A stretch of DNA of 64,000 bases. Source: Octopus vulgaris (Eukaryota). Under the pieces are notes generated by a model. That model had not been told where the DNA came from. It saw nothing but the letters and a program-made list of their open reading frames with translations, and made no database searches. A program made the position numbers and the translations under genes. The stretch's first letter is position 1. Each line of letters begins with the position of its first letter. Below, piece by piece: positions 1 to 41,049 of the stretch. The stretch is taken from contig OX597822.1 in NCBI GenBank assembly GCA_951406725.2, positions 61,008,001-61,072,000 of the forward strand, in the 5' to 3' direction.

Positions 1-2470
1 CTACCTCTTCCACGGGTTCCCTCCACTGCTAGGGATTGGCACTTTTTCACACACCTATCTTCATCCATTCTCGCCACATGACCGTACCAGCGCAATCGTC
101 TCTCTTGCACACCACAACTGATGCTCCTTAGGTACAACATTTCTCTCAGGGTACTAACGCTCTGTCGAGCATGCACACTGACATTACACATCCATCGGAG
201 CATACTGGCTTCATTTCTTGCGAGCTTATGCATGTCCTCAGCAGTCACGGCCCATGTTTCACTGCTATGTAGCATGGCTGTTCGTACACATGCATCATAC
301 AGTCTGCCTTTTACTCTGAGCGAGAGGCCTTTAGTCACCAGCAGAGGTAAGAGCTCCCTAAACTTTGCCCAGGCTATTCTTACTCTAGCCATTACACTTT
401 CAGCACACCCACCCCCACTACTGACTTGGTCACCAAGATAACGGAAGCAATCAACTACTTCTAGTTTTTCCCCCTGGAAAGTGACGGAAGTTGTTTTCTG
501 CAGATTTTCAGAGGTTAATGCTCCCGAGCATCTGCCGCATACAAAAACCATCTTCCTAGTTAGCCTTCCTTTGACATTGCTGCACCTCTTATGTGTCCAT
601 AGCTTACACTTGGTGCATCTTATAGAGTTTCTACCTACACCTTTTCTACAGATCGAGCAGGGCCATCTACCTGAAGGCGTTTGTGATTTGTCTACCTTCC
701 TACTTATTACGACTTTGGTTTTAGCTAGATTGACTCTAAGGCCCCTCGATTCTAAACCTTGCTTCCACACCTGAAACTTCTCCTCCAGTTCTGATAGTGA
801 CTCAGCAATTAGAGCAAGGTCATCAGCATAGAGGAGCTCCCAGGGGCATCCTGTCTTGAATTCCTCTGTTATTGCCTGGAGGACTATGATAAATAGGAGG
901 AGGCTGAGGACTGAGCCATGGTGGACCCCTACCTCTACCCGGAATTCTTCACTGTACTCGTTGCCAACCCTCACCTTACTAGCAGCGTCCCTGTACATGG
1001 CTCGCACAGCTCTCACTAACCATTCATCTATCCCTAGTTTCCTCATTGACCACCAGATGAGGGATCGGGGGACCCTGTTGAAGGCTTTCTCCATGTCAAC
1101 AAAAGGTACAGGGGCTTATCTTTGGCTAGGTATTTCTCCTGCAGCTGCCTTACCAGGAATATAGCATCAGTGGTACTTTTCCCTGGCACGAACCCAAACT
1201 GCATCTCATCTAAACTAACTCTCTCTCTAATTAGTTGGGCTATGACCCTCTCTGTAACCTTCATTACTTGATCCAACAGCTTGATACCTCTGTAATTATT
1301 TGTATCTAGGGCGTCACCTTTACCTTTGTAGCAGTTGACTATTATGCTGCTACACCAGTCATTGGGTATGACTCCTTCGTGTATCACCTGATTAACTATA
1401 CGGGTGACTAGGCTATAGCCGACACTACCAGATATTTTGAGCATCTCTGCAGTGATACCTGATGGGCCTGGGGCTTTCCCTGTCTTCATGCTTCTAATTG
1501 CCTTAACTACCAAGGAACTATCAACTCTGATAGCTGGTCCCTCTGTTGGGTCAACATTCGGCAGACTCTCTTTATCCCATTCATTTTCTTTATTCAGCAA
1601 CCTTTCATAGTGGCATCTCCAAACCTCTCTCTTTGCATCCTCATTTAGCGCAAGTGAACCATCTTCCATGCGAACACACTTCTCTCCTACCACATCACAA
1701 TTCTCTCTCACACACTGTCTTGCAACGCGAAACACCTCCAGTCTTTGGTCCTCACGGCGCAGAACATTGGCAAATTTTTTCTTATCTGCTTCCCCTCTGG
1801 CTAAATACACCAGTCTCCTAGCTTCCCTTTTAGCAGTCTGATACAATTCCCTGCTACCACCATTCTTCCAGTGTTTCCAAGTCTGTCTCTTTTCTCTAAT
1901 AGCCCTGTCTACAACACTGTTCCACCACCACGTAACCTTGGGATGAGAGGGGACTTTGCACCAGCCACAAATCTGGTCAGTGGCTCTCAGCAGGTTGTTC
2001 CTTAGAAACGTCCAGTTGCCCTCTACCCCATGTGATACTCTATCCCCTTCTACTTCGTCAAAGGCTTCAAGTAGCATGTCCCTAAATCTCTGTACATTCG
2101 CAGGATCTTTAAGCTTCCAGATCCTTCTTCTCCATGTTGGTCGTCTTCTGGTTGTCCTCCTAGTCCTGATCCTAAAGTCACTAACTACCAGTCTATGTTG
2201 TGGGGTACATTCTTCACCTGGGAAGGCTTTGGCATTTATAAGTAGCCATCTCTCCCTTTGCCTGGCAAGGATGTAGTCAATTTGGCTGGTATGTTGGCCC
2301 GATCGGTAGGTGACTAGGTGGCTGGTAGGTTTCCTGAAGTTAGTGTTGCAAATCATAAGATTATTTGCATCGCAGAACTCCAGCAGCCTGGCTCCCTCCT
2401 CATTGCGGGAACCATAGCCATAGCCTCCATGTACGCCATGGAAGCCCCCAGCATGTCGTCGAACGTGACC
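1..2470 (-). mobile_element. RTE-clade LINE, 5'-truncated inside the AP endonuclease; ORF2 with RT runs off the window start; frameshift near 1103
   Basis: ORF 1043..2815 gives GHV..HGGYGYGSRNEEG..LLEF, QIDYIL, KAPGPSGI, YRGIKLL, QFGFVPGKSTTDAIF. After the frameshift, manual translation gives VDMEKAFNRVP, ELLYADD (about 820-840), FRYLGDQ and RRLRWYGHV. Confidence 0.95.
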
Positions 2471-3977: not shown

Positions 3978-4227
3978 TTACTCTTTTACTCTTTTACATG
4001 TTTCAGTCATTTGAATGTGGCCATGCTGGAGCACCACCTTTAGTCAAGCAAATCTACCCCAGGACTTATTCTTTGTAAGCCTAGTACTTATTCAATCAGT
4101 CTCTTATGCCGAACTGCTAAGTTACGGCGATGTAAACACACTAGCATCGGTTGTCAAGTGATGTTGGGGGGACAAACACAGACACACAAACATATACACA
4201 CACATACACATATATACATATATATAT

Positions 4228-4288
<61 letters not shown>

Positions 4289-4448
4289 TACGACGAGCTT
4301 CTTTCAGTTTCCGTCTACCAAATCCACTCACAAGGCTTTGGTCGGCCCAAGGCTATAGTAGAAGACACTAGCCCAAGGTGCCACATAGTGGGACTGAACC
4401 TGGAACCATGTGGTTCGTAAGCAAGGTACTTACCACACAGCCACTCCT
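3978..4448 (-). mobile_element. tRNA-derived SINE, family A (internal CA/TA microsatellite, AAGAGTA-type tail)
   Basis: Minus-strand head aggagtggctgtgtggtaag (A box) and ggttcagtccc (B box); near-identical copies at 10.2, 13.1, 16.6, 27.1 and 40.7 kb. Confidence 0.9.
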
Positions 4449-4629
4449 AAGCTTATTTAATTAATTTGAGCCCAATACTTGACTGGTACTTTATTTTATT
4501 GACCAAAGAAGGATGAAAGGCAAAGTTGACCTTGGCTGTATTTGAACTGTGAACATAAAAATCAAAAAAAAGACAGTGCAAGACCTCTTTTCCAACACTT
4601 GAATGATTTTTCCAATCCAATGCTATTTT

Positions 4630-8676: not shown

Positions 8677-10403
8677 CATCAATATTTTTCTTTATTAACA
8701 GCTAGTCGCAATGTGGAATTGCATAAAAAGCCTACAAAAAGGAGAATAACAGTAACAAAGAAACGATAAATTATTAACAGCCAAGTGCAGTGTGATACTG
8801 TAAAAGAAAAATTCAATTTGTTTATATTAATTTTTAGTATATGCATTAGCATTGAGCTAAATCATCCACAAATTTTTAATGGTAAATACATATATGCTGG
8901 CAGAGGGAATTAGCTGATTATGCACCATTCAAGCAGTCCTCGGTGATGATGTCTACAGTCATAGACAAAACTAGATCTAGTCTGAGTGATCCTCAAAATG
9001 ACCATGGGGATGGGTACTTCCCCTGTCAGCATGTGTGTATACTCTATGCGCTCTTCCAACAGCATTAAGAGTATTTTAACTCTTATTTCTAGCAATGTAG
9101 GTGCTCTGGCACTGTTAGAAACACTTAGTGATGATTGAATTTTTCCTTCATGGTATCACATTGCGCCTGGCTGTTACTATTAAGTTTTAGTATATAAATA
9201 TATATGTGTGTTTGTGTGTGTGTGTGTGTGTGTGCATATACACACACACATACACACACACACTCTTCTTTTAATTTGTATCTACCAAATCAACTGATAA
9301 GACTTTGGCCAACCTGGGTCTATATTGAAGACACCAAAGGTTTTGTGCAGTGGGACTGAAATCAAGAAGCAAATTTCTTAACCACACATCCATGCCTGTG
9401 TCTCTACATAAAGGTAACACGACATCAAATGTTTGCTAACAATCTCAGAACAAATTTACTCTGATACTCTTATTGAAGAAGTTAAACAAATGAATCAGAT
9501 ACTTCAAAAGTTGCTTAAGTGCTAGTTTGAATTCATGATTTATACTTAGATTCTTAATTTGATTGATAGTCAGTGAACTCAAACTACATGTCTAATGCTG
9601 TTGCTGTTGGTAGGGGTTATGATGATTGTGGTGATGTTGATAGTTGAAGTAGAGTTGTACAGCTGTTGTTATTGTTTGCCCCTCTTCCCATCACCACTGA
9701 TAAGCTCTAACTAAATGGATCTAAGACTTTATATAACTGACTTAATCCATTGCTTTGTTTAACACCATCACCTGCTTTCTGAGTGTCTTCAACAAAATTC
9801 CCTGTTGTAAGTATTCAGACCAGGTCTCTTATTTACTTCATAGATAACTTCCTCCCTTCATGTTATCAGTCACAGAGGTCCTGTAAAAAGGTCACAGCTA
9901 TTGTCTTTCCTCTGACTATACCATATTAAAAGCCATTCCAACAGTGACCATGCTGGCATTTGCAGGGTATTTATGACCACAAAAGGATAAACATCAATGC
10001 TTATGCATAAACACATACATGTATATACATATATACGTTGATACATAAATACATATGAGAGGCTGCTGAAAAGTTCCTGGCTTTAAGAGTATCGTGAAAG
10101 GCCTGGTTGGAAGCCCAGCCTTCCAAGTTCTTTTACAGGGCTTAGAAAAACTGAAGGACCACTGCAATAAGTGTGTGAATCTGAGAGGAAAATATCTATA
10201 ATAATACTCTCTTTACTCTTTTACTTGTTTCAGTCATTTGACTGTGGCCATGCTGGAGCACCACCTTTAGTCGAGCAAATCAGCCTCAGGACTTATTCTT
10301 TGTAAGCCTAGTACTTATTCTATCGGTTTGTTTTGCCGAACCACTAAGTTATGGGGACGTAAGCACACCAGCATCGGTTGTCAAGTGATGTTGGGGGGGA
10401 CGA

Positions 10404-10434
<31 letters not shown>

Positions 10435-10694
10435 TATCTATATATGTATATATAAATTTACAATTGAGGATAAAATCTTTATAAGAAATTATCAGTAGTT
10501 AGCGTGAAAAACCTCGTAAGAGAAAAAATCCGTAAATTTTTCCACTTTGAAAATATTTATTTATATTACATTGAGGGTACTACTATTCATAGATACCGCA
10601 TGCTAAGAGGGACCAATGCGGTCAAAACTACTAAAATAAACAAAATTTTACCGAATGCAAAACTTCAAAGCAAGTCATTTAAAAAAAGTATTTA

Positions 10695-10758
10695 GTTACA
10701 TATCACCTGTGATTTCGCAATTAATGCAGAATATGCATTCTATGTTCATCAGTGCAAC
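10695..10758 (-). ncRNA. Type I hammerhead ribozyme motif with intact core
   Basis: GUUGCA-CUGAUGA-[aca uag aaugca uauuc ugcauu aau ugc]-GAAA-UCAC AG GUGA-UA-UGUAAC: 6-bp stem I, bulged stem II, very short-looped stem III; A10.1-C11.1 mismatch. Confidence 0.75.
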
Positions 10759-11050
10759 AAACTCAAGACATATAAGAAAAAACATAACGTTACAAACCCG
10801 ATAGCCAACCGTAGAATTCGTCGTAGCATGTACGAATGTTTATCTTTACATATCTATGAAAATGGCAGGCTTATTCGCAATAATATTGCAATAATATTGC
10901 AATATTATTCGCAATAATATTGCAATATTATTGCGAATAAGCCCGCCATTTTCATAGATATGTAAAGATAAACATTCGTACATGCTACGATGAATTCTAC
11001 GGTTGGCTATCGGTTTGTAATGTTATGTTTTTCTTATATGTCTTGAGTTT

Positions 11051-11114
11051 GTTGCACTAATGAACATAGAATGCATATTCTGCATTAATTGCGAAATCAC
11101 AGGTGATATGTAAC
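11051..11114 (+). ncRNA. Mirror hammerhead copy with a core mutation (CUAAUGA)
   Basis: gttgca ctaatga acatag..ttgc gaaa tcacaggtga ta tgtaac; G5 changed to A. Confidence 0.65.
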
Positions 11115-13106
11115 TAAATTCTTTTTTTAAATGACTTGCTTTGAAGTTTTGCATTCGGTAAAATTTTGTTTATTTTAGTAGTTTTGACCGCATTGGTCCC
11201 TCTTAGCGTGCGGTATCTATGAATAGTAGTACCCTCAATATAATATATGTATATATATATATACATATATACGATGGGCTTCTTCCAGTTTCCAACCACC
11301 AAATCCACTCACAAGGCTTTGGTCGGCCCAAGGCTATAGTAGAAGACACTTGCCTAAGGTGTCAAGCAGTGGGACTGAACCCAGAACCATGTGGTTCGTA
11401 AGCAAGCTACTTACCACACAGCCACTCCTATGCCTAATAAACATGAAATTCTGTCTATCCATCCATCTGGGACCCCTGTATTTCAGTTTACATTTGCTCT
11501 ACATAGACATATTATACCTTTTTGGAATAAGAGTGATTCTGGGATTGAATTTGGTTCTTGAACATCCAGCATTGGGATCAGGTCTTGATGAGGATTTGTT
11601 ATATGCTAACAGTTGAAAATTCAAATTTTAAAGGACTCCAAAAATTTGTGAACTTAAAGTTTTTCATTTAAACTGAATTTAAAGAAATACCATATTGGTG
11701 GGGTACCTATAAATGTTTTATTATTGTTGTTCCTTTTAGTTTTGGGTCACAGGCCCAATTAGCCCTCTGCAAGAGCCAGCTGAAAAGTCCAGTGTGGCTT
11801 TTAATTTAGTGTAGAATAAAATCATAATTAACTGATCTTTCTCTGTTTGCTTTTACTCAAAGCCAGGAACTTTTCAGTACCCCTTGTACATATTTACATA
11901 AATATATACATACATGCACATAAATTACTGGTGCACTAACAGTATTTTATTCCAATGTTAAACTGTACTACAGAATATGTCATTACATTTTTAGCCAACA
12001 CTATATGTACTAACACCATATGACAGATAGAAACACTGTCTTACTTATACTAGCCCAACAAATGTTGACTATATCCAGATCAACTGTTTAAAATCTTGCA
12101 TGTTTAAAATTTTACCTGATGATCATGGATTGTATATTATGATATAATCTTTTATGACTACATGAAACAAAATTGTACAGAAACAGCTATGGCATTGAAA
12201 AATTTTTAATACCATTCATGCTCATTATTTTATTCTTACACCACACCAAAGATCTATTGGTGAGTCAGATCAATGATTACAATCTGGATTTCATATTTTC
12301 ATATCTGTGGTATCCTGCCAGTATATGAAATCTACAATGTTGTTTATTTCGCTGTAAGCTCTGTATTTGTACCTAACCTTACATGTTGGTGTGCCTTGAT
12401 TCTTAAAGAATCCTTATAACTAATTCATATAATGTCTTATTTATACAATAGCTTTGTGAGTACAAAAAGAAGGACCAGCTAGACACGGTGCAATTTGGAT
12501 TTTGTGAGTCACTAATGTCCCTTTTAGCAGCTGATGGAGTCACTGCTCATAAACCGACTATTTTGAAGGGCTTAAGTAAATTTGACCGTAGTAGTAAAAA
12601 CAGAGAAAACTATTATAGTGAGGTAATGAATGAAGTATTTTAGCACAGTCTTGAATGTGTGTCATGAGTGCACCATCACAGAAATATGAAGTAGTGTGTA
12701 TATAAGTGTAGCCAGGCAACTGAGATTTGTGAGTAAGCAAGCCCCAGCTGATTTATAAATATTTATCATCTTCTAGTAACTATTTATCATATTTGATACA
12801 TAAATATTTATATTTAATATTTTTAAAAAATGATATGGTTATATATAGCTACATTGTATTTAACCTGTTAATTTTGTTGACATAGAATAATGAGTACAAT
12901 TTGCACAAGTATAATTACACATTAGGATTTATAATTTTATTTCAACATGTCAGTCTGTTGGTAAGTGTATATGTGTGGAGGGGTTGAGTGGGGAAGGGTA
13001 GAAGAATAGTTTTAAAAAAACAAAAGTTTCAGTGACAAAGATTTCAGAAAATATGTTACATGTAAAGGCAAGTATTTTCATTTGAATGACTGATATCGAC
13101 AGTCTA

Positions 13107-13497
13107 TTACTCTTTTACTCTTTTACTTGTTTTAGTCAAGTGACTGAGACCATGCTGGAGCACCGCCTTTAGTCGAGCAAATCAACCCCAGGACTTATTC
13201 TTTGTAAGCCTAGAACTTATTCGGTCTCTTTTGCCAAACCACTAAGTTACAAGGATGTAAACACACTAGCGTAGCTTGTCAAGCGATGTTGGGGGGACAA
13301 ACACAGATACACAAATACACACACACATATACATATATGTGATGGACTTCTTCCAGTTTCCGGCTACCAAATCCACTCACAAGGCTTTGGTCAGCCCGAG
13401 GCTATAGTAAAAGACACTTGCCCAAGGTGCCATGCAGTGGGACTGAACCCGGAACCATGTGGTTGGTAAGCAAGATACTTACCACACAGCCACTGCT
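13107..13497 (-). mobile_element. SINE family A
   Basis: Full-length match to 3978-4448. Confidence 0.9.
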
Positions 13498-14392
13498 ACA
13501 CCTATGTACAAATACAGCTACATGGTTAAGAATTTCACTATGCAATCATCTTGCCTGGATTCAATCCTATTGTATAACAAAAATCCTATTGCATAACAAA
13601 AATCTCATAACAGACACATCAGAGAAACACAAGCCTTGTAAGTGAAATTACATAGATGTAAATCATGCAGAGGCCTAACAGAACTGTAATCGTTTCTGGG
13701 GTGGTGACCCTAATTTATCATCCTGCTTAACAGATTTAACTAATATTTCTAACTGATTTGAGTAATTGTGTAGTGGTTCTGTTTTTAATTTGCTCTGTCA
13801 ATATTTTAAATTGTTTTGTTTCTGAGGAAATTGAAGAAAATGTAATCCTCTTTAACAGATAAGATTTAATGTCATGCAACTACTTAGTATCTGTTATTGT
13901 GTACTGTAGTATGGGTAAATACAACAAACAAATCTTCTTATTAGTAATCATGAAGACATAAGTTTTTGATACAATGACAAAGAATTTCTTAAGGTCATCA
14001 CTAATGTCTACCTAAACCTTTCTTTTAACACTTTTCAACTTCCTGTAGCTCTTATTGTCTATCATACTAAGCCATACACTAAGCCTTTTGCTTTATTTTA
14101 CCTCTCCACAATGGCATTTCTCTAAAATTTGCTTCCTCTATTTTCTCACTACATACATATGAGAGTTGATGACAGAGAACCTTAACAAGTTTTCTCAGAC
14201 TGAGGTATGCATGGAAAAGTAAATATTAAACAGACAACGATGACAACAACAACGATGATGATGATGACAATAAAGATGAGTTACTAATTGTCAAAGTAAT
14301 TTGATTCTATGAAATTCAGGAGTGATGAGTGTTGGCATTTTAATGCTAATATTGAGATAGGCAGGAAAAGATGGATAATTAATAAGAAAGAG

Positions 14393-16594: not shown

Positions 16595-16965
16595 TGTGTG
16601 GTAAATAGCTTGCTTACCAACCACATGGTTCCGGGTTCAGTTCCACTGTGTGGTACCTTGGGCAAGTGTCTTCTACTATAGCCTCGGGCCGACTAAAGCC
16701 ATGTGAGTGGATTTCGTAGACAGAAACTGAAAAGAAGCCCATTGTATATATGTATATACATGTATGTGTATGTGTTTGTGTCCCCAACATCGCTTGACAA
16801 CCGATGCTGGTGTGTTTATGTCCCTGTAACTTAGTGGTTCGGCAAAAGGAACTGATAGAATAAGTACTAGGCTTACAAAGAATAAGTCCTGGGGTCAATT
16901 TGTTCGACTAAAAGGCAGTGCCCCAGCATGGCCGCAGTCAAATGACTGAAACAAGTAAAAGAGTA
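16595..16965 (+). mobile_element. SINE family A
   Basis: tgtgtggtaaatagcttgcttacc..gactgaaacaagtaaaagagta. Confidence 0.9.
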
Positions 16966-17085
16966 GAAAATTTATGCAACGTTATCAGTTGAATGTTAAT
17001 CAGTAATTGATAAATATACATTTGATTTTGGAGAGACTACAATGCTTTATGACAATACTATCTTAAAAATAGTATTAGCACTACA

Positions 17086-17306
17086 TACAAGGTGATTGAA
17101 AAGTTACAACATATTTTAAAATACTTATAAATTATCTATTAATTGTAATTTTTTTCTCAAATTTTTTGTTTGTTTTTTGAAATATAAATAAAACCTTATA
17201 CTAAAAGCTTTCCTCTCAAATCCCATCTTTTTTTTTGGAAAAATTGCAATTAATAAATAATTTACAAGTATTTTAAAATAGGGAGTTACTTTTCAATCAC
17301 CCTGTA
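17086..17306. mobile_element. Tc1/mariner-type MITE with TIRs of about 67 bp and TA ends
   Basis: tacaaggtgattgaaaagttac..ttaattgtaatttt versus aaaattgcaattaa..gttacttttcaatcaccctgta. Confidence 0.85.
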
Positions 17307-17314
17307 TGTGTGTG

Positions 17315-17489
17315 TGTGTGTGGTAAGAAGTTTATTTACCATGCATAATGGTTCTGAGTTCAGTCCCACCGTATGGTACCTCAGGCAAGTGTCTTCTACA
17401 ATAACCTCAGGTTGACCAAAGCCTTGTGATTGGTAGACAGAAATGGAAAGAAGCCTGTTGGATATATATATATATATATATATATACAT

Positions 17490-17555
<66 letters not shown>

Positions 17556-17740
17556 GTATATATAAATGTACTTATGTATATGATGATCTTCTTTCAGTTT
17601 CCCTCAACAAATTCACTCACAAAGCTTTGATCAGCTTGGGGCTATAGTAGAAGACACTTGTCCAAGGTGCCATGCAGTGGGACTGAATGAGGAACCATGT
17701 GGTTAGAAAGCAAACTTCTTACCACTAACCCACATCTGTG
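17315..17740. mobile_element. Two SINE head fragments in opposite orientation around a (TA)n tract
   Basis: + head about 17315-17460 and - head about 17578-17740, both with gttcagtccca and caagtgtcttcta motifs. Confidence 0.75.
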
Positions 17741-18862: not shown

Positions 18863-19108
18863 ATAAAGATTGAAGTTGTAGTTGACAAAATTTAGTTGAC
18901 ATGGCAGACTAGAAGTCATCTGAATATTGGAAACGGGTTACCTGTATCATGGTAATTCACACCAGGTATCAAAATGCTGACATCATGACTACTGCTCAAT
19001 GCCCTATGAACATTATCAAGGCTGTAAGATGTGACATGTTCATCATGAATGCCTAATTCTAGTCTGCCATGTCAACTAAATTTTGTCAACTACAACTTCA
19101 ATCTTTAT
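18863..19108. repeat. Perfect 52-bp inverted repeat with a 142-bp spacer
   Basis: 18863-18914 is the exact reverse complement of 19057-19108. Confidence 0.9.
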
Positions 19109-24843: not shown

Positions 24844-25097
24844 TAGTAAAGATTGTTTGCCAACATAACATGGCAGTCCTGGTTTAGGACAAATGTTGCT
24901 ATAATTTAGCCCCTGGAGACATCATCTCCAGCTGGCTATAAAACACGATCTGTGTCTTTATATTTCCTTGTTCGAAAATATAAGGACACAGATTGTGTCA
25001 TATAGCCAGCTGGAGATGATGTTTCCTGGGGTTAAATTACAGCAACATTCTTCCTAAACCAGGACTGCCATGTTATGTTGGCAAACAATCTTTACTA
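24844..25097. repeat. Fold-back palindrome, arms about 122 bp, loop under 10 nt
   Basis: tagtaaagattgtttgccaacataacatggcagtcctgg.. versus ..ccaggactgccatgttatgttggcaaacaatctttacta. Confidence 0.92.
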
Positions 25098-25651: not shown

Positions 25652-27090
25652 CCGGTTACCCAGAGTGCAATTGGTTTGTCGTTAGTGTGCGAGTCAGACG
25701 TTTTTCTTTTTGCTGCTTTGAGGTTAGTAATGTACTCGGACCTTAGCGGGTCAGAGCTGTCTTCTTCAGAGGAGGAGCTGCTGAGAGCAGTAGAAGGCAT
25801 GGATGAATATTTGAAGAAAACGAAGAGTTTCGCAGAGGCTGTGGAGGTGAAGAGAAAAGAGGTGGATTTATCAAGTATGAAGGAGCATGGAAAAATGGTG
25901 CAGAAAGTGGGCGGCAACGTGACGTTGTCACTGCCACAAAGAATAATGGATGGCATAAAAAGAAGAACGGTCATATACAAAGTTTACTCGATAAAGAGTA
26001 AGAAGGTCGACCTAATAGAAATAGAGAAAATAGAAAAGGCAGTAAAGGAGGAATCCAACGGAGTAATATACATGAGAAGAGGATGCCAATATGGGACAAT
26101 GGTAGTCCAGTTTAGAACAGAGGAGGAGGCAAGGAGGCTGGCGGGTAAAAGAGTAAAGACGAAGGAAATGGTCCTTCTACCCATGTATCTTGGAAAAAGG
26201 ACTTCCAAGATAAGGGTAGAAGCAATTCCAACTGATATAAATGTGGCTTGGGTAGTGACAGCTGTCCTTGTTGGAAGCGAGGAAAAGGTGGCTGTCTTCC
26301 AAGCCACAGAAACAGAGAGGGAGGGTGGAAAGGAAGGACGCTTGAGTTAATTATTCAGACGGAGGAGGGACAACTCGAGAACTTGGCAGAGACTGTGACG
26401 CTGGGGGAAATCGTGCTGAGTGTGTGGGTAGAGGGCAGAGTACCACGTTGTTTTAAATGTGGCCAAAAGGGCCACATTAGAGCATACTGCCCTCTACGAA
26501 GGACTATGGCTGAGGATATAGTTGCAGAGACAGAAGAGAAAAGAGAGGAAGACAAAATAGACGAAGGAAACGATAAAAAAGAGGAAGAATGGAAAATTGC
26601 AGAGCGCAAAAGGAGAAAGAGGAAAAAAAGAAAAGACACTGAGTATGATGTGGCAACCCAGTCCAACCCCATCCCATCCAAGACCACTCAGACCCACCCT
26701 CCCCATACAGACACCAAACCCACCCACCCCATTTCCCCTCAAGAAAAAAAGAAAAAGAAAGAACAGACACTACGGTGAAAAAGGTTATGAATGCATGATG
26801 GAGAGAATGTTATCATTAAGTGACAGTGAAAAGGGAAAAAGGATTGGACGAAAAGAGAAAAAGGACTCAGGACCCAGAGACAGCGAGTTGTGTTACTCAG
26901 TGTGGGGTGAGTAGCAAACTCTTCATATCATTTTCAGATATCATTCATATTATCATATTTTAATTTGTTCTTCATGTGCATTTTCATGTTCATTCATTAC
27001 ATCATATTTTATTTTTAATTGTAATATGTCCCCCACATGTGTTGTAGTGTCCCCTCTGTGTATTGCCTTTATGGCAAATTTAATAAAATA
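25652..27090 (+). mobile_element. ORF1-only non-autonomous L1/Tx1-type retroelement (HAL1-like)
   Basis: 13-bp TSD aagtagcttgctt (25639-51 and 27091-103); gag-like ORF; 3' hairpin ttgcc-tttat-ggcaa plus aataaaata; no EN or RT. Confidence 0.8.
25730..26914 (+). pseudogene. Gag-like ORF1 with CCHC zinc knuckle, frameshifted
   Basis: ATG 25730 (MYSDLSGSE..); RRM-like VVQFRTEEEARRL; frameshift near 26320 into ..VWVEGRVPRCFKCGQKGHIRAYCP (knuckle 26449-26490); K/E-rich tail; stop at 26778, or 26914 if there is a second frameshift. Confidence 0.8.
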
Positions 27091-28290
27091 AAGTAGCTTG
27101 CTTACGAACCACATGGTTCTGGGTTCAGTCCCACTGTGTGACACCTTGGGCAAGTGTCTTCTACTGTAGCCTCGGGCTGACCAAAGCCTGGATTTGGTAG
27201 ACGGAAACTGAAAGAAGCTCGTTGTATATATATATATATATGTATGTATGTATGTATGTGTGTGTGTGTGTATATGTTTGTGTGTCTGTATTTGTCCCCC
27301 CAACATCGCTTGACAACCGATGCTGGGGTGTTTACGTCCCTGTAACTTAGCAGTTCAGCAAAAGAGACCGATAGAATAAGTACTAGGCTTACAACCTGGG
27401 GGTTGATTTGCTTGACTAAAAGCGGTGCTCCAGCATGGCCACAGTCAAATGACTGAAACAAGTAAAAGAATAAAAGAGATATATACACACACATAATGTG
27501 GATGGATGCTGATTGCTCCATAAATAAGTGTCAATCTCTCAAAGTGGATGAAACTTGTGGATGAAGGAGACCAAGAAAGACATGGGACAAGACACTGAAC
27601 GATGACCTCAGGATGTTGAACCTTTCAGACAAGATGACAAAGGACCGCAATATCTGGTGCCTTGCTGTACTCAAGAAATCCTGTCCTCCACAGCAGAAGT
27701 GTTAAGGCCAATTCCCCCTGGTGACAGAGAAAGTCCTGTGCCGGTGCCACATAGAAAGCATTGTACCCAGCACACACACTGTAAAGTGGTTGGCATTAGG
27801 AAGGGCATCCAGCAGTAAAAGCTAAGCCAAATCAAACTGGAACCTGGTGTAGCTCTCCAGTTTACCAGCTTTGGTCAAACCGTCCAACCCATGCCAGCAT
27901 GAAAAACGTACGTTAAAGGATGATGATGATGAAGGAATATGATGTATATAACAGGCTTCCACACAGCTACTCACAGTTTCTGTCCTAATTTATTTACAAG
28001 GTATTGGACAGCCTGGGGCTATATTAGAAGATACTTACCCAAGGTGTCGCACAGGGGGACTGAACCCAAAACCATGTGGTTGCAAAGCTAACTTCTTAAC
28101 CACACAGCCATACCTATGTATGTATACTAATATGATACCATTTTGCTCCAAACTTATAACCAATCTCATTATAACGTTAGCCATCTCCACTCCCTCTTTT
28201 TTCTTTATTTTTTTTTAGATATTATTCATCCTTCCATATCTTTCAAAACATTTCCCGGGTACAAGCCTGACCTGTGAGCTGTAGCAAATA

Positions 28291-38024: not shown

Positions 38025-38491
38025 TAAGCACTTGTATTGTTTACTATCTGGTAATCTATAAAATATGGTTTAGAGTTGTGTAATTGACAGTTTTCTGCCT
38101 TAATAGACATCTGGTTTCTAATCTTACTGAAGTAGCTCCATCCTTGTTCAAGAGACAGTAAAAATAGATGCTTGCCAACAGGCTGAATTGTGTGTGGTCT
38201 CTACGCTGCAGTTATTGGCTAACTGTAACCAGAGCTGCTCAGCAATAACAATTTAGGCCACTGTGGAAAAATAAACATGTGAATTTAAGTCAACAAGGGA
38301 ACACGTCTTTAGTTATATATGATGCTTATATATATTGGTTAGTTGAAAATGCTGTCATCTATTTTGATGGCATTCCTCCTGTTTTTACCCTCTGAGGTTA
38401 GTTGCAGTTAAAGGAAGATTTGAAAGGAGATGCTATTACCAGTAATCTGGAACAAGCGATCCAAAAGATGTCTTTAGCAACATCATTGTAG

Positions 38492-38653
38492 TAGTATAGG
38501 AGAGGGAATCATAGCCATTATCTAAGCATGGGTATTTCCAGCTGAAAATTAGTCTTTATAGTAGCAGCAACACTACCACTACATATAATAACATAATTTT
38601 CAGCTGAAAATACCCATACTCAAATACTGGCTATGATTCCCTTTCCTATAGTA
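38492..38653. repeat. Imperfect inverted repeat, arms about 57-60 bp (MITE or fold-back)
   Basis: tataggagagggaatcatagcca..cagctgaaaatta versus taattttcagctg..tggctatgattccctttcctata. Confidence 0.85.
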
Positions 38654-40724
38654 ATAATTTTGCAACTAGAGCATGTATATTTTTAGTTATTTTTACAATC
38701 AAATAAACACTAGTTGTTTATTAGACTTAAAGAAAGCTTTCTTTAAAATACCACTCGCTGTCTCTTGTAACTGGTTTCCTACACTGTAAGCTGATAACTG
38801 ATTCTACAGTTGTTATAATGTAACTTTGGAACTTGTGGTAATGGGTTTTAGTAAGCAGAAAGTCCACCACTATCTGAAAGAACTTTGTCTGAACTGTGAT
38901 AATAAAACTCAGAATGCTTTTCTTTCTTTCTTTCTTTCTTTCTTTGTACTTTTTCTTCTAAGATGCTATGGTCTGAAGCAAATATTTTCTTCTTTTTACT
39001 CAACAGCTTTCCAAAAGATGTTTCCTTTCTTTTTTTCTTTATCTCAAGATTTTTCAGATTCCTTTTTCAATTATTTTCTTTTCTTTTATGTTTTTAGTTA
39101 TCTTTAAAGACTTCAAATATTTTCCATATCTAGTTGTCTGTTGTAAACAGTTGTCAGTATTAGGATTTTTTTTTTCTTTCCTACAAGGCTGGATGTTTGG
39201 AATACATTAGGACTTTAAAGACTTTATATAACCTAAAAGTACACTAATTTCCTCTACCTCATATTTAATGAATAGCATTCATTTTTACTTTTAGGTTATA
39301 TCATAGGTTATTGACTGAACTGATGTCTGAATTATACTGAAAGGCTCCTGAGCATTACACAATTCAACATGTTCGTGTTATTCATGTTTAAAACTGAATA
39401 TATGGAATCATGAATAGGAAATTTCATTCAATTTTGGGTTGCTAAATGCATTAGATAAAATTCAATTTCTATATATTACATTTTCCTTTCAGCAGACAGT
39501 TTTCTTGAAAAACATGAAATGTAATTATTGGCATGACTAGCTAGCTAAATGGGATTTTATTTCTTGTTCCATTAAAGTTCGTCTTTCATCTTGTTAGCTG
39601 GCATGAGCGCATTAAAATTTAATGCTACTTTTAACAAAGCATATCTTGAAGATAAACACATAGAATGTTCTGTTTCATATTGAGATATTATTGATTATTA
39701 CACATACTCTTTAACTATCTGCTTTTAATAAACTCAGTAATTAAGCCAACTAGATTATATACAAGCCAATGCAGAAGCCTCCACTTGTTATACTGACCTA
39801 TTATAAATCAGCATCTTACAGGAAAGGCATATCGGACAATGTAAACCTAAGATATCTTTGATCATGGATTGTTAGTCCTGGGGCTAAACAACAAGGTAGC
39901 CAAAAATAAATAAAATAAAAATGTCTATGTAAAAGCAAGCACTGTAGAAGAGTAAGCAGTTAAGTTGTTGATAGCAATCCTGTTTTAATCTCCAGTTGTT
40001 GTCATTTCGCATTTATGTGCCAGTGAGAAATGGCATATACCTCACATGGATTTAAATAGGACTGATCACCAAAATAAACTGACTTTATCATAAAATGCAT
40101 GGGATAAATACTTTCAAACTTTACTGTAAATCTTGTATTGTTCTCTTAGGCAATGTGGTACTTAACTGAAGTGACCTTCATTTGCTTGACTGACAGGTTC
40201 CACTTTTATTTGATAATTAATGGGTTTTGCCTGTAGGAAGTGCATCCAACTGTAAGCAGTTGTTTCAATAAACACCATTCCACTCCTCTCCTTCTACTGT
40301 AAGAAAAAAAAAATCATTGAAACTAGTGATTGCTAAAGTGTTTATATAAGAACTTGTTTCTGTCCAGTGAACTATTTCATTTTCCTCTGTTTTTTGTCCT
40401 ATAAATAATTTTACCAATTTGACTAGTGCTTAAAATTTTAGAAAACTAAGACTTGAAATAAATATTTTAGGGGTTGGTGGGGAAGGCATGCAAATATAAG
40501 GATGTTAATATAAGTATATTTATTGGAATAGTGAGTAAATTGATAAATTTATTGGAATAGTGCATAAATCATATCTTCCTTGTCTTCATATACTTTTCAA
40601 ATATGACTTGACTTTATTTAAACAAAAAGATGCATTCACCATTTGATTTGAAGTGAAACAATTAGTTAATTTTATTGCTGAACATATTAGATTATAAATA
40701 AACAACACATACATTTAATAAGCA

Positions 40725-41049
40725 CAGGCATAGCTGTGTGGTAAGAAGCTTGCTTCCCAACCACATGGTTGCAGGTTCAGACCCACTGCATGGCACCTTG
40801 AGCAAGTGTCTTCTGCTATAACCTTGGACTGGCCAAAGCCTTGTGAGTAGATTTGGTAGATGGAAACTGAAAGAAGCTCCTATATATGTATATGTTTGTG
40901 TGTCTGTGTTTATGTCCCCGTAAGTTAGCAGTTGGGCAAAAAGCAACTGATAGAATAAGTACTAGGCTTACTGGGGTTGATTTGTTTGACTAAAGGTGGT
41001 GCTCCAGCATGGCTGCAATCAAATGACTGAAACAAGTAAAAGAATAAAA
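40725..41049 (+). mobile_element. SINE family A with internal deletions
   Basis: gctgtgtggtaagaagcttgcttccc..gactgaaacaagtaaaagaataaaa. Confidence 0.85.

What the first reader, a model, noticed from the sequence alone, without database searches (positions are those of the whole stretch)
10695..11114. Pair of type I hammerhead ribozymes inside a giant palindrome
Seen: each arm folds into stem I (GUUGCA/UGUAAC), CUGAUGA core, bulged stem II, GAAA, a near-palindromic stem III (UCAC-AG-GUGA) and a UA cleavage site. The minus copy keeps the core; the plus copy has G5 changed to A. Both have an A10.1-C11.1 mismatch. Established: Penelope-like elements carry type I hammerheads with very short stem III that cleave mainly as dimers; G5 is essential. 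Inference: a self-cleaving RNA module, possibly functional on only one strand, predicted to cut between 10701 and 10700 on the minus strand.
Basis: partly seen in the sequence, partly recalled or inferred. Interest (0 to 1): 0.78.

Follow-up and report, generated by a model that had tools for sequence, protein, structure and literature searches.

The report
Folded-back Penelope-type insertion with hammerheads
This is one decayed copy of a very abundant animal repeat that carries a hammerhead ribozyme motif, duplicated head-to-head, likely while it was inserting, in an arrangement already described for Penelope-like retrotransposons, and both ribozymes are predicted to be silent in any RNA read through the palindrome.

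Summary
They are not a purpose-built pair. They belong to a single insertion (10455-11242) of a very high-copy repeat. It lies in the TA/CA microsatellite of another repeat and is flanked by a 15-bp direct repeat. The family continues past 10881; only this locus folds back there, through 50 bp of non-family filler. Head-to-head arms, a palindromic junction, a one-sided tail and opposite-strand hammerheads 100-700 bp apart are described for Penelope-like elements (PMC3846280, PMC4209133, PMC8557442). Among family copies, all 7 variable hammerhead sites shown avoid the core and paired stems (20 of 60 rows hidden); position 7 varies and G10.1 exists. A10.1 is the majority DNA allele, whereas G10.1 dominates one putative RNA run. 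Each ribozyme lies downstream of its own complement, so a read-through RNA is predicted to trap it, and opposite strands cannot form a cis dimer. No RT/endonuclease partner was found and cleavage is untested. Verdict: new member of a known kind, modest interest.

The parts
10200..10398 (+). Left half of the host repeat into which the element inserted
   Evidence: 86-90% identical to four other window copies whose two halves are joined by a plain microsatellite
10440..10454 (+). Left copy of the putative 15-bp target-site duplication, in the TA microsatellite
   Evidence: Only direct repeat of 10 bp or more across the two junctions; low complexity, the same word occurs at 6 other places in the window
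10455..10562 (-). One-sided 3' extension ('tail') of the family, present only on the long arm
   Evidence: High family depth, and family contigs end into (TA)n near 10467 (tables 2, 7); no counterpart in the right arm
10563..10880 (-). Long (left) arm: family sequence, hammerhead-sense on the minus strand
10695..10758 (-). Type I hammerhead motif, intact core, A10.1.C11.1 mismatch, predicted cut 10701/10700
10881..10930 (.). Non-family filler at the fold-back centre: 11-bp self-complementary repeats, first 13 nt mirrored on both arms
   Evidence: family contigs leave the window sequence behind 10881; centre depth 0 in X1 and X8, low-copy level in X4 and X5
10931..11246 (+). Short (right) arm: inverted copy of 10563-10880; its last 4 nt overlap the right direct repeat
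11051..11114 (+). Type I hammerhead motif with G5A (11059), predicted dead
   Evidence: G5A inactive per PMC4075628 and PMC4027429
11243..11257 (+). Right copy of the putative 15-bp target-site duplication
11268..11445 (+). Right half of the host repeat

Best explanation
The palindrome is a single decaying copy of a high-copy hammerhead-bearing repeat, likely the 3' end (pLTR plus tail) of a Penelope-like element or of a non-autonomous derivative, that was likely duplicated head-to-head while it inserted into a TA microsatellite. Inferred steps: (1) a PLE RT-endonuclease cut the AT-rich target and primed reverse transcription at the family's 3' end (10455). (2) The cDNA stopped after about 425 nt (10880). 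(3) Its 3' end snapped back on itself several times, laying the 11-bp filler, and a last snap-back copied the new strand back to about 10563 and joined the other target end through a 4-nt microhomology, leaving a 15-bp duplication. (4) The arms then decayed separately, G5A hitting the right arm. In the parent family the hammerhead likely cuts the element's own RNA, probably helped by dimerisation of the palindromic stem III or by the element's protein. At this locus both motifs are predicted to be inactive unless a transcript starts between about 10760 and 11050.
For: Family: 1582, 985, 701 and 89 contigs laid in X1, X4, X5 and X8. Summed depth over the hammerhead is about 1,800-3,400 times that of low-copy contigs in the three runs not labelled RNA (X1, X4, X5); this is a rough ratio, not a copy number. 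Locus-specific fold-back: family contigs continue behind 10881 with one unrelated-looking consensus (agreement 0.95-0.99), and the centre is covered only in X4 and X5 at low-copy depth; single contigs show strand-switch joints at other points, 10537/10597 and 10591/10743 (table 5). One template: 13 nt of non-family filler are mirrored; both arms share the same alleles at family-variable sites 10686, 10720, 10722, 10740, 10741 and 10745, while at 10601, 10689 and 10789 the left arm alone departs from the family. Target: internal microsatellite of a host repeat with four empty copies printed, 15-bp direct repeat; family contigs also end into (TA)n near 10467 and 10553. Selection on the ribozyme: 8 variant rows at 7 sites in 10695-10758, none in the 46 of 64 core or paired positions (P about 5e-5 if placed uniformly); N7 takes two other letters, H17 A>C, A.C>G-C and U.U>U-A. 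Literature: inverted 5'-truncated copy, one-sided tail and microsatellite bias (PMC8557442 passages); head-to-head inverted pLTRs with junction palindromes and 8-10-bp TSDs (PMC3846280 passages); dual opposite-strand hammerheads 100-700 bp apart (PMC4209133 part 1); both-strand cutting of AT-rich DNA and protein-assisted HHR (PMC11167929 parts 1-2).
Against: No PLE RT or GIY-YIG sequence is linked: no frame of the arm is homologous to one, and the family beyond 10881 is known for only 30 letters. The tail (about 108 nt) and the duplication (15 bp) are longer than the 30-40 nt and 8-10 bp in the papers read. The duplication is low-complexity. 20 of 60 variant rows are hidden, variant sites reflect a few subfamily splits and are not independent, and for the 11 core bases alone P = 0.25. 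10759 A>G (8-41%) would break a pair in the distal stem I. The majority DNA allele lacks G10.1-C11.1, which PMC4209133 calls highly conserved. No cleavage or true RNA evidence was obtained.
Confidence: 0.7

Rival explanations
1. The family is a tandem non-LTR retrozyme (circular-RNA, rolling-circle type) and this locus is a partial monomer with an inversion.
For: The hammerhead has a 6-bp stem I with a bulged extension and a palindromic stem III, closer to canonical type I than to minimal PLE motifs (PMC4209133); no ORF on the hammerhead strand; mussel retrozymes reach about 5000 copies (PMC7229834 section 14); 9 rows labelled 'RNA?' hold 0.23-0.37 of the words. Retrozymes are themselves proposed PLE derivatives (bioRxiv 10.64898/2026.07.22.740005), so this rival is close to the best reading.
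Against: None of the 4 joints listed goes back, so a monomer would exceed about 425 nt against 170-400 nt described. The arm RNA is not strongly self-paired (z -0.83). Fixed ends into (TA)n fit a linear 3' end.
Confidence: 0.17
2. The insertion was simple, and the inversion arose later through replication template switching or break repair.
For: The filler looks like iterative snap-back synthesis, as in end-joining repair (own knowledge); the window holds five other fold-backs without hammerheads.
Against: The 15-bp duplication encloses both arms, which a later event would not be expected to recreate; PLEs are described as making such structures on insertion (PMC3846280).
Confidence: 0.08
3. 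A MITE or foldback DNA transposon whose long terminal inverted repeats carry a captured hammerhead.
For: A 97% inverted repeat of about 330 bp in a high-copy family.
Against: The centre is unique to this locus, the family runs on past 10881, the ends are asymmetric, and inversions occur at other points in other copies.
Confidence: 0.03
4. A functional, locus-specific strand-selective self-cleaving module.
For: The left core is intact and only the right carries G5A.
Against: One substitution among 10 arm differences is what neutral decay gives; read-through RNA buries the motif; even alone the left arm prefers a misfold; no cis dimer is possible.
Confidence: 0.02

Closest known systems
Penelope-like elements with inverted pLTRs (Penelope/Poseidon, Neptune, Nematis; A. 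vaga Pen2; S. mansoni Cercyon fragments)
   Same: Type I hammerhead near the 3' end, head-to-head inverted 5'-truncated copy, palindromic junction, one-sided tail, TSD, AT-rich or microsatellite target, opposite-strand hammerhead pairs 100-700 bp apart (PMC8557442, PMC3846280, PMC4209133)
   Different: No RT/GIY-YIG ORF found; no ORF start overlapping the hammerhead as in Anolis Poseidon (PMC11167929); tail about 108 nt; stem III longer (4-5 bp) than the minimal motifs; no extra base between A9 and 10.1 in the G10.1 form; A10.1.C11.1 common
Metazoan non-LTR retrozymes (coral, mussel, axolotl)
   Same: Non-coding, low GC, type I hammerhead with palindromic stem III, thousands of copies (PMC7229834)
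   Different: No tandem arrangement here, no monomer junction within 425 nt, inverted rather than head-to-tail, circles not tested
Naiad PLEs
   Same: (TA)n insertion bias, inverted structures, very high copy numbers in invertebrates (PMC8557442)
   Different: Naiads lack canonical hammerheads; this family has one

Membership tests
Type I hammerhead ribozyme | Core C3 U4 G5 A6 N7 G8 A9, G12 A13 A14 A15.1, U16.1 H17 | tested here: met
   Left arm complete; right arm fails at G5
Type I hammerhead ribozyme | Three helices, helix I open-ended | tested here: met
   marginal stability in the left arm
Type I hammerhead ribozyme | G10.1-C11.1 pair | tested here: not met
   A.C in both arms; G10.1 in 18, 26 and 20% of depth in X1, X4, X5 and 93% in X8
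Type I hammerhead ribozyme | Core conservation and stem covariation across copies | tested here: inconclusive
   No core or stem change in the 40 of 60 rows shown; only one-sided pair restorations; variants unphased
Type I hammerhead ribozyme | Match to an Rfam hammerhead model | tested here: not met
   long helix II may explain the miss (inference)
Type I hammerhead ribozyme | Site-specific self-cleavage | not testable with these tools
   Needs a bench assay; only contigs could be laid
Penelope-like element | Telomerase-like RT plus GIY-YIG endonuclease ORF in the family | tested here: inconclusive
   None in the 426 nt present; upstream family sequence unavailable, no genome held
Penelope-like element | Inverted 5'-truncated copy next to the 5' end, with junction palindrome | tested here: met
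Penelope-like element | One-sided tail | tested here: met
   10455-10562, longer than the 30-40 bp described
Penelope-like element | Hammerhead in the pLTR | tested here: met
   pLTR status itself is inferred
Penelope-like element | Partial tandem (direct pLTRs) in other copies | not testable with these tools
   Only short contigs; no genome
Non-LTR retrozyme | Head-to-tail repeats of about 170-400 nt, each with a hammerhead | tested here: not met
   No tandem at this locus; no go-back joint among the 4 listed for 476 nt
Non-LTR retrozyme | Abundant circular RNA | not testable with these tools
   Only contigs from runs guessed to be RNA
MITE / foldback DNA transposon | Family-wide terminal inverted repeats with fixed ends | tested here: not met
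   Centre unique, family runs on past 10881, asymmetric ends

The most novel reading that the evidence does not exclude
The family is an undescribed, longer-than-retrozyme non-autonomous Penelope-type element whose dominant genomic subfamily amplified with a non-canonical A10.1.C11.1 hammerhead that still cleaves, helped by a two-part helix II and a dimerising stem III, while a G10.1 subfamily is the expressed one. Its fold-back insertions, with mirrored non-templated filler, would record a DNA-level snap-back step of PLE integration and convert the ribozyme region into long dsRNA able to silence the family.
Probability: 0.15. Interest if true: 0.55.

Novelty: new member of a known kind. Interest (0 to 1): 0.3.

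Why it matters
It adds a high-copy hammerhead family that Rfam's models miss, and it gives a clean junction for the open question of how Penelope-like elements make head-to-head inversions: the mirrored non-family filler says the second arm was copied from the first. The A10.1/G10.1 split between DNA copies and a putative RNA run is a cheap test of whether cleavage matters for expression or amplification, a point left open by PMC11167929, where HHR cleavage was dispensable in vitro. The locus itself is probably a dead insertion.

Tried and rejected
No whole genome is held, so no copy alignment, covariance model or orthologous-site test was possible. Rfam gave 0 hits at gathering score; the 48 hits at E <= 10 are generic hairpin matches below threshold, none a hammerhead. 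Pattern scans found 1 locus in metagenome contigs, 2 in viral contigs and 0 in prokaryote genomes; L001-L003 lack stem I and are chance matches. The strand opposite the hammerhead is open for 135 codons with one stop (5 of 2000 shuffles reach this). It has no Pfam family (best E 0.07) and no homologs at near or longer lengths. Its single phmmer hit (E 7.6e-6) is a repetitive bacterial secretin-N protein whose score is summed over repeats; I rejected it as chance, and the openness remains unexplained. The RT ORF at 3-2872 looks like an RTE-type LINE by my reading, not a PLE partner. The sigma-70 promoter scan is irrelevant to an animal genome. Earlier findings of the scan: nothing in 4 look-ups. 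Assembly artefact was rejected: the centre is in short-read contigs of X4 and X5 (an 86-nt contig over 10852-10937 with 1 difference), and the arm differences sort by family allele; X4 may be the source sample. Absence of the centre in X1 and X8 is not taken as proof of an empty site. The paper on dimeric cleavage of PLE hammerheads by Lunse et al. (recalled) is not held. Ten literature searches showed no description of this particular family; repeat databases and subscription journals were not searchable, so it may be catalogued there.

Full report
Observation. The window holds a near-perfect inverted repeat whose arms differ at 10 of 333 aligned columns. Each arm encodes a type I hammerhead motif pointing outward: minus strand 10758-10695 with an intact core and a predicted cut at 10701/10700 (AUA), and plus strand 11051-11114 with G5A at 11059. 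A descriptor scan found only these in 64 kb; the strict motif never appeared in 40 block-wise dinucleotide shuffles. Rfam models did not detect it. Both arms have A10.1.C11.1. Stem I extends by 6 pairs past a bulged U. Helix II is 2 canonical pairs, an internal loop and a 6-bp hairpin. Stem III alone is unstable as a monomer (+0.4 kcal/mol) but forms a -11.2 kcal/mol duplex with a second copy. Folding energy gives no support by itself (z near 0), and the core-intact arm prefers a misfold by 3 kcal/mol.

Boundaries and target. The flanks are the two halves of another dispersed repeat. Four other copies in the window have those halves joined by a plain CA/TA microsatellite, so the insertion is 10455-11242. 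It is enclosed by a 15-bp direct repeat (10440-10454, 11243-11257), compatible with a target-site duplication but low in complexity: the word occurs at 6 other places. The left arm runs about 108 nt further (10455-10562) than the right, whose end overlaps the right direct repeat by 4 nt.

Family. No genome is held. 20 of 24 listed runs hold part of the arm, under four organism labels. I laid 4 of them on 10465-10940: 1582, 985, 701 and 89 contigs. Summed depth over the hammerhead is about 3,400, 2,200 and 1,800 times that of low-copy contigs in X1, X4 and X5. The tool warns that this is no copy number, but it shows a very abundant family. The family covers the tail and the whole arm, ends into (TA)n near 10467 and in some contigs near 10553, and behind 10881 continues with one consensus that is not the window's centre. 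The centre has depth 0 in X1 and X8 and low-copy depth in X4 and X5, where one 86-nt contig spans it with 1 difference. So the palindrome is real, belongs to this locus, and is not the family's normal shape. Single contigs show strand switches at two other points.

How the inversion formed. The 50-bp centre is built from the last family letters and their complement (11-bp self-complementary units), and its first 13 non-family letters are mirrored on both arms. Both arms share alleles at six family-variable sites, while three of their differences are left-arm departures from the family and G5A is a right-arm change not seen among the family rows shown. I infer one template, fold-back copying after the filler was laid, and later independent decay.

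Is the ribozyme under selection? In 10695-10758 one search shows 8 variant rows at 7 sites. Position 7 takes two other letters (the free core position, PMC4075628 part 1), H17 changes A to C, three sites lie in the internal loop, and two restore pairs (A.C to G-C at 10.1; U.U to U-A). None falls on the 46 of 64 positions that are core or paired in this copy (P about 5e-5 under uniform placement). Caveats: 20 of 60 rows are hidden, sites are not independent, the 11 core bases alone give P = 0.25, one variant just outside (10759) weakens distal stem I, and unphased data cannot show two-sided covariation. A10.1 is 74-82% of depth in X1, X4 and X5, so it is a subfamily trait; G10.1 is 93% in X8 (3 contigs, one run only guessed to be RNA), a weak hint that the canonical form is the expressed one.

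Function at this locus. On either strand the sense ribozyme lies in the arm transcribed second, after its own complement. In the 788-nt read-through RNA every hammerhead helix has probability 0.00, and forcing the fold costs 103 kcal/mol. The two motifs are on opposite strands and cannot form the cis dimer described for tandem copies (PMC6155905 passages, PMC4209133). G5A is an established inactive control (PMC4075628 part 1; PMC4027429 passages). Cleavage would need a transcript starting between about 10760 and 11050 and probably a partner in trans; nothing here shows one.

Comparison with what is known. PMC8557442 (passages) describes an inverted 5'-truncated copy next to the 5' end, a 30-40-bp one-sided tail, hammerheads in pLTRs and microsatellite bias for PLEs. 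PMC3846280 (passages) describes head-to-head inverted pLTRs with junction palindromes and 8-10-bp TSDs, attributed to self-priming. PMC4209133 (parts 1-2 of 4) reports dual hammerheads 100-700 bp apart on opposite strands in S. mansoni, palindromic helix III, low in vitro activity and conserved G10.1-C11.1. PMC11167929 (parts 1-2 of 4) shows both-strand cutting of AT-rich DNA, internal RT starts that explain tails, and a protein-assisted, dispensable HHR. PMC7229834 (passages, section 14) and bioRxiv 10.64898/2026.07.22.740005 (part 1 of 5, passages; supplements not seen) describe tandem retrozymes as PLE derivatives. PMC8969392 (passages) restates the PLE structure. The locus works like an inverted PLE pLTR pair. 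Membership is not fully shown because no RT-endonuclease ORF is linked: the hammerhead strand is non-coding over 426 nt, and the near-open opposite frame has no credible homolog.

Verdict. Observation confirmed; interpretation partly supported. This is a new member of a known kind: a hammerhead-bearing Penelope-type repeat, here as a probably dead fold-back insertion. Shown: motifs, boundaries, high-copy family, locus-specific inversion, allele pattern. Inferred: PLE identity, integration mechanism, cleavage in the parent family, silence at this locus. Interest 0.3.

Noticed in passing
window 10474-10878 (+): The strand opposite the hammerhead is open for 135 codons with a single stop; 5 of 2000 dinucleotide shuffles reach this. 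No credible homolog.
   Followed up: yes
table 7, loose end behind 10881: The family's continuation resembles the reverse complement of 10641-10659 (seen by eye): a possible long-range helix enclosing the hammerhead, or an old inversion.
   Followed up: no
window 10760-10866 (-) and 10945-11050 (+): The RNA just upstream of the hammerhead folds into a roughly 100-nt imperfect hairpin (z about -2, 9 of 200 shuffles as good).
   Followed up: partly
window 10745: G10.1 is 18-26% of depth in X1, X4 and X5 but 93% (3 contigs) in X8, which is only guessed to be RNA; X8 also differs at 10720, 10722, 10740, 10741 and 10748, suggesting a distinct expressed subfamily.
   Followed up: partly
window 24844-25097, 17311-17734, 38489-38656, 17083-17309, 18863-19108: Five further local fold-backs (70-89% identical arms), none with a hammerhead by the descriptor scan.
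   Followed up: partly
window 3979-4455, 13105-13504, 16595-16965, 27091-27479, 40714-41048: A dispersed repeat of two conserved halves joined by a variable CA/TA microsatellite; it is the host of this insertion.
   Followed up: partly
window 3-2440 (-): Frameshifted LINE remnant with RT (RVT_1 start, YADD motif), RTE-like by my reading.
   Followed up: partly
window 26236-26778 (+): ORF with a CCHC zinc knuckle, probably a gag-like or LINE ORF1 remnant.
   Followed up: no
whole window: AT-rich and dense in TA, CA, TATG and AAT/GAT microsatellites and SINE-like repeats: an animal genome; it recalls coleoid cephalopods (from memory, untested).
   Followed up: no
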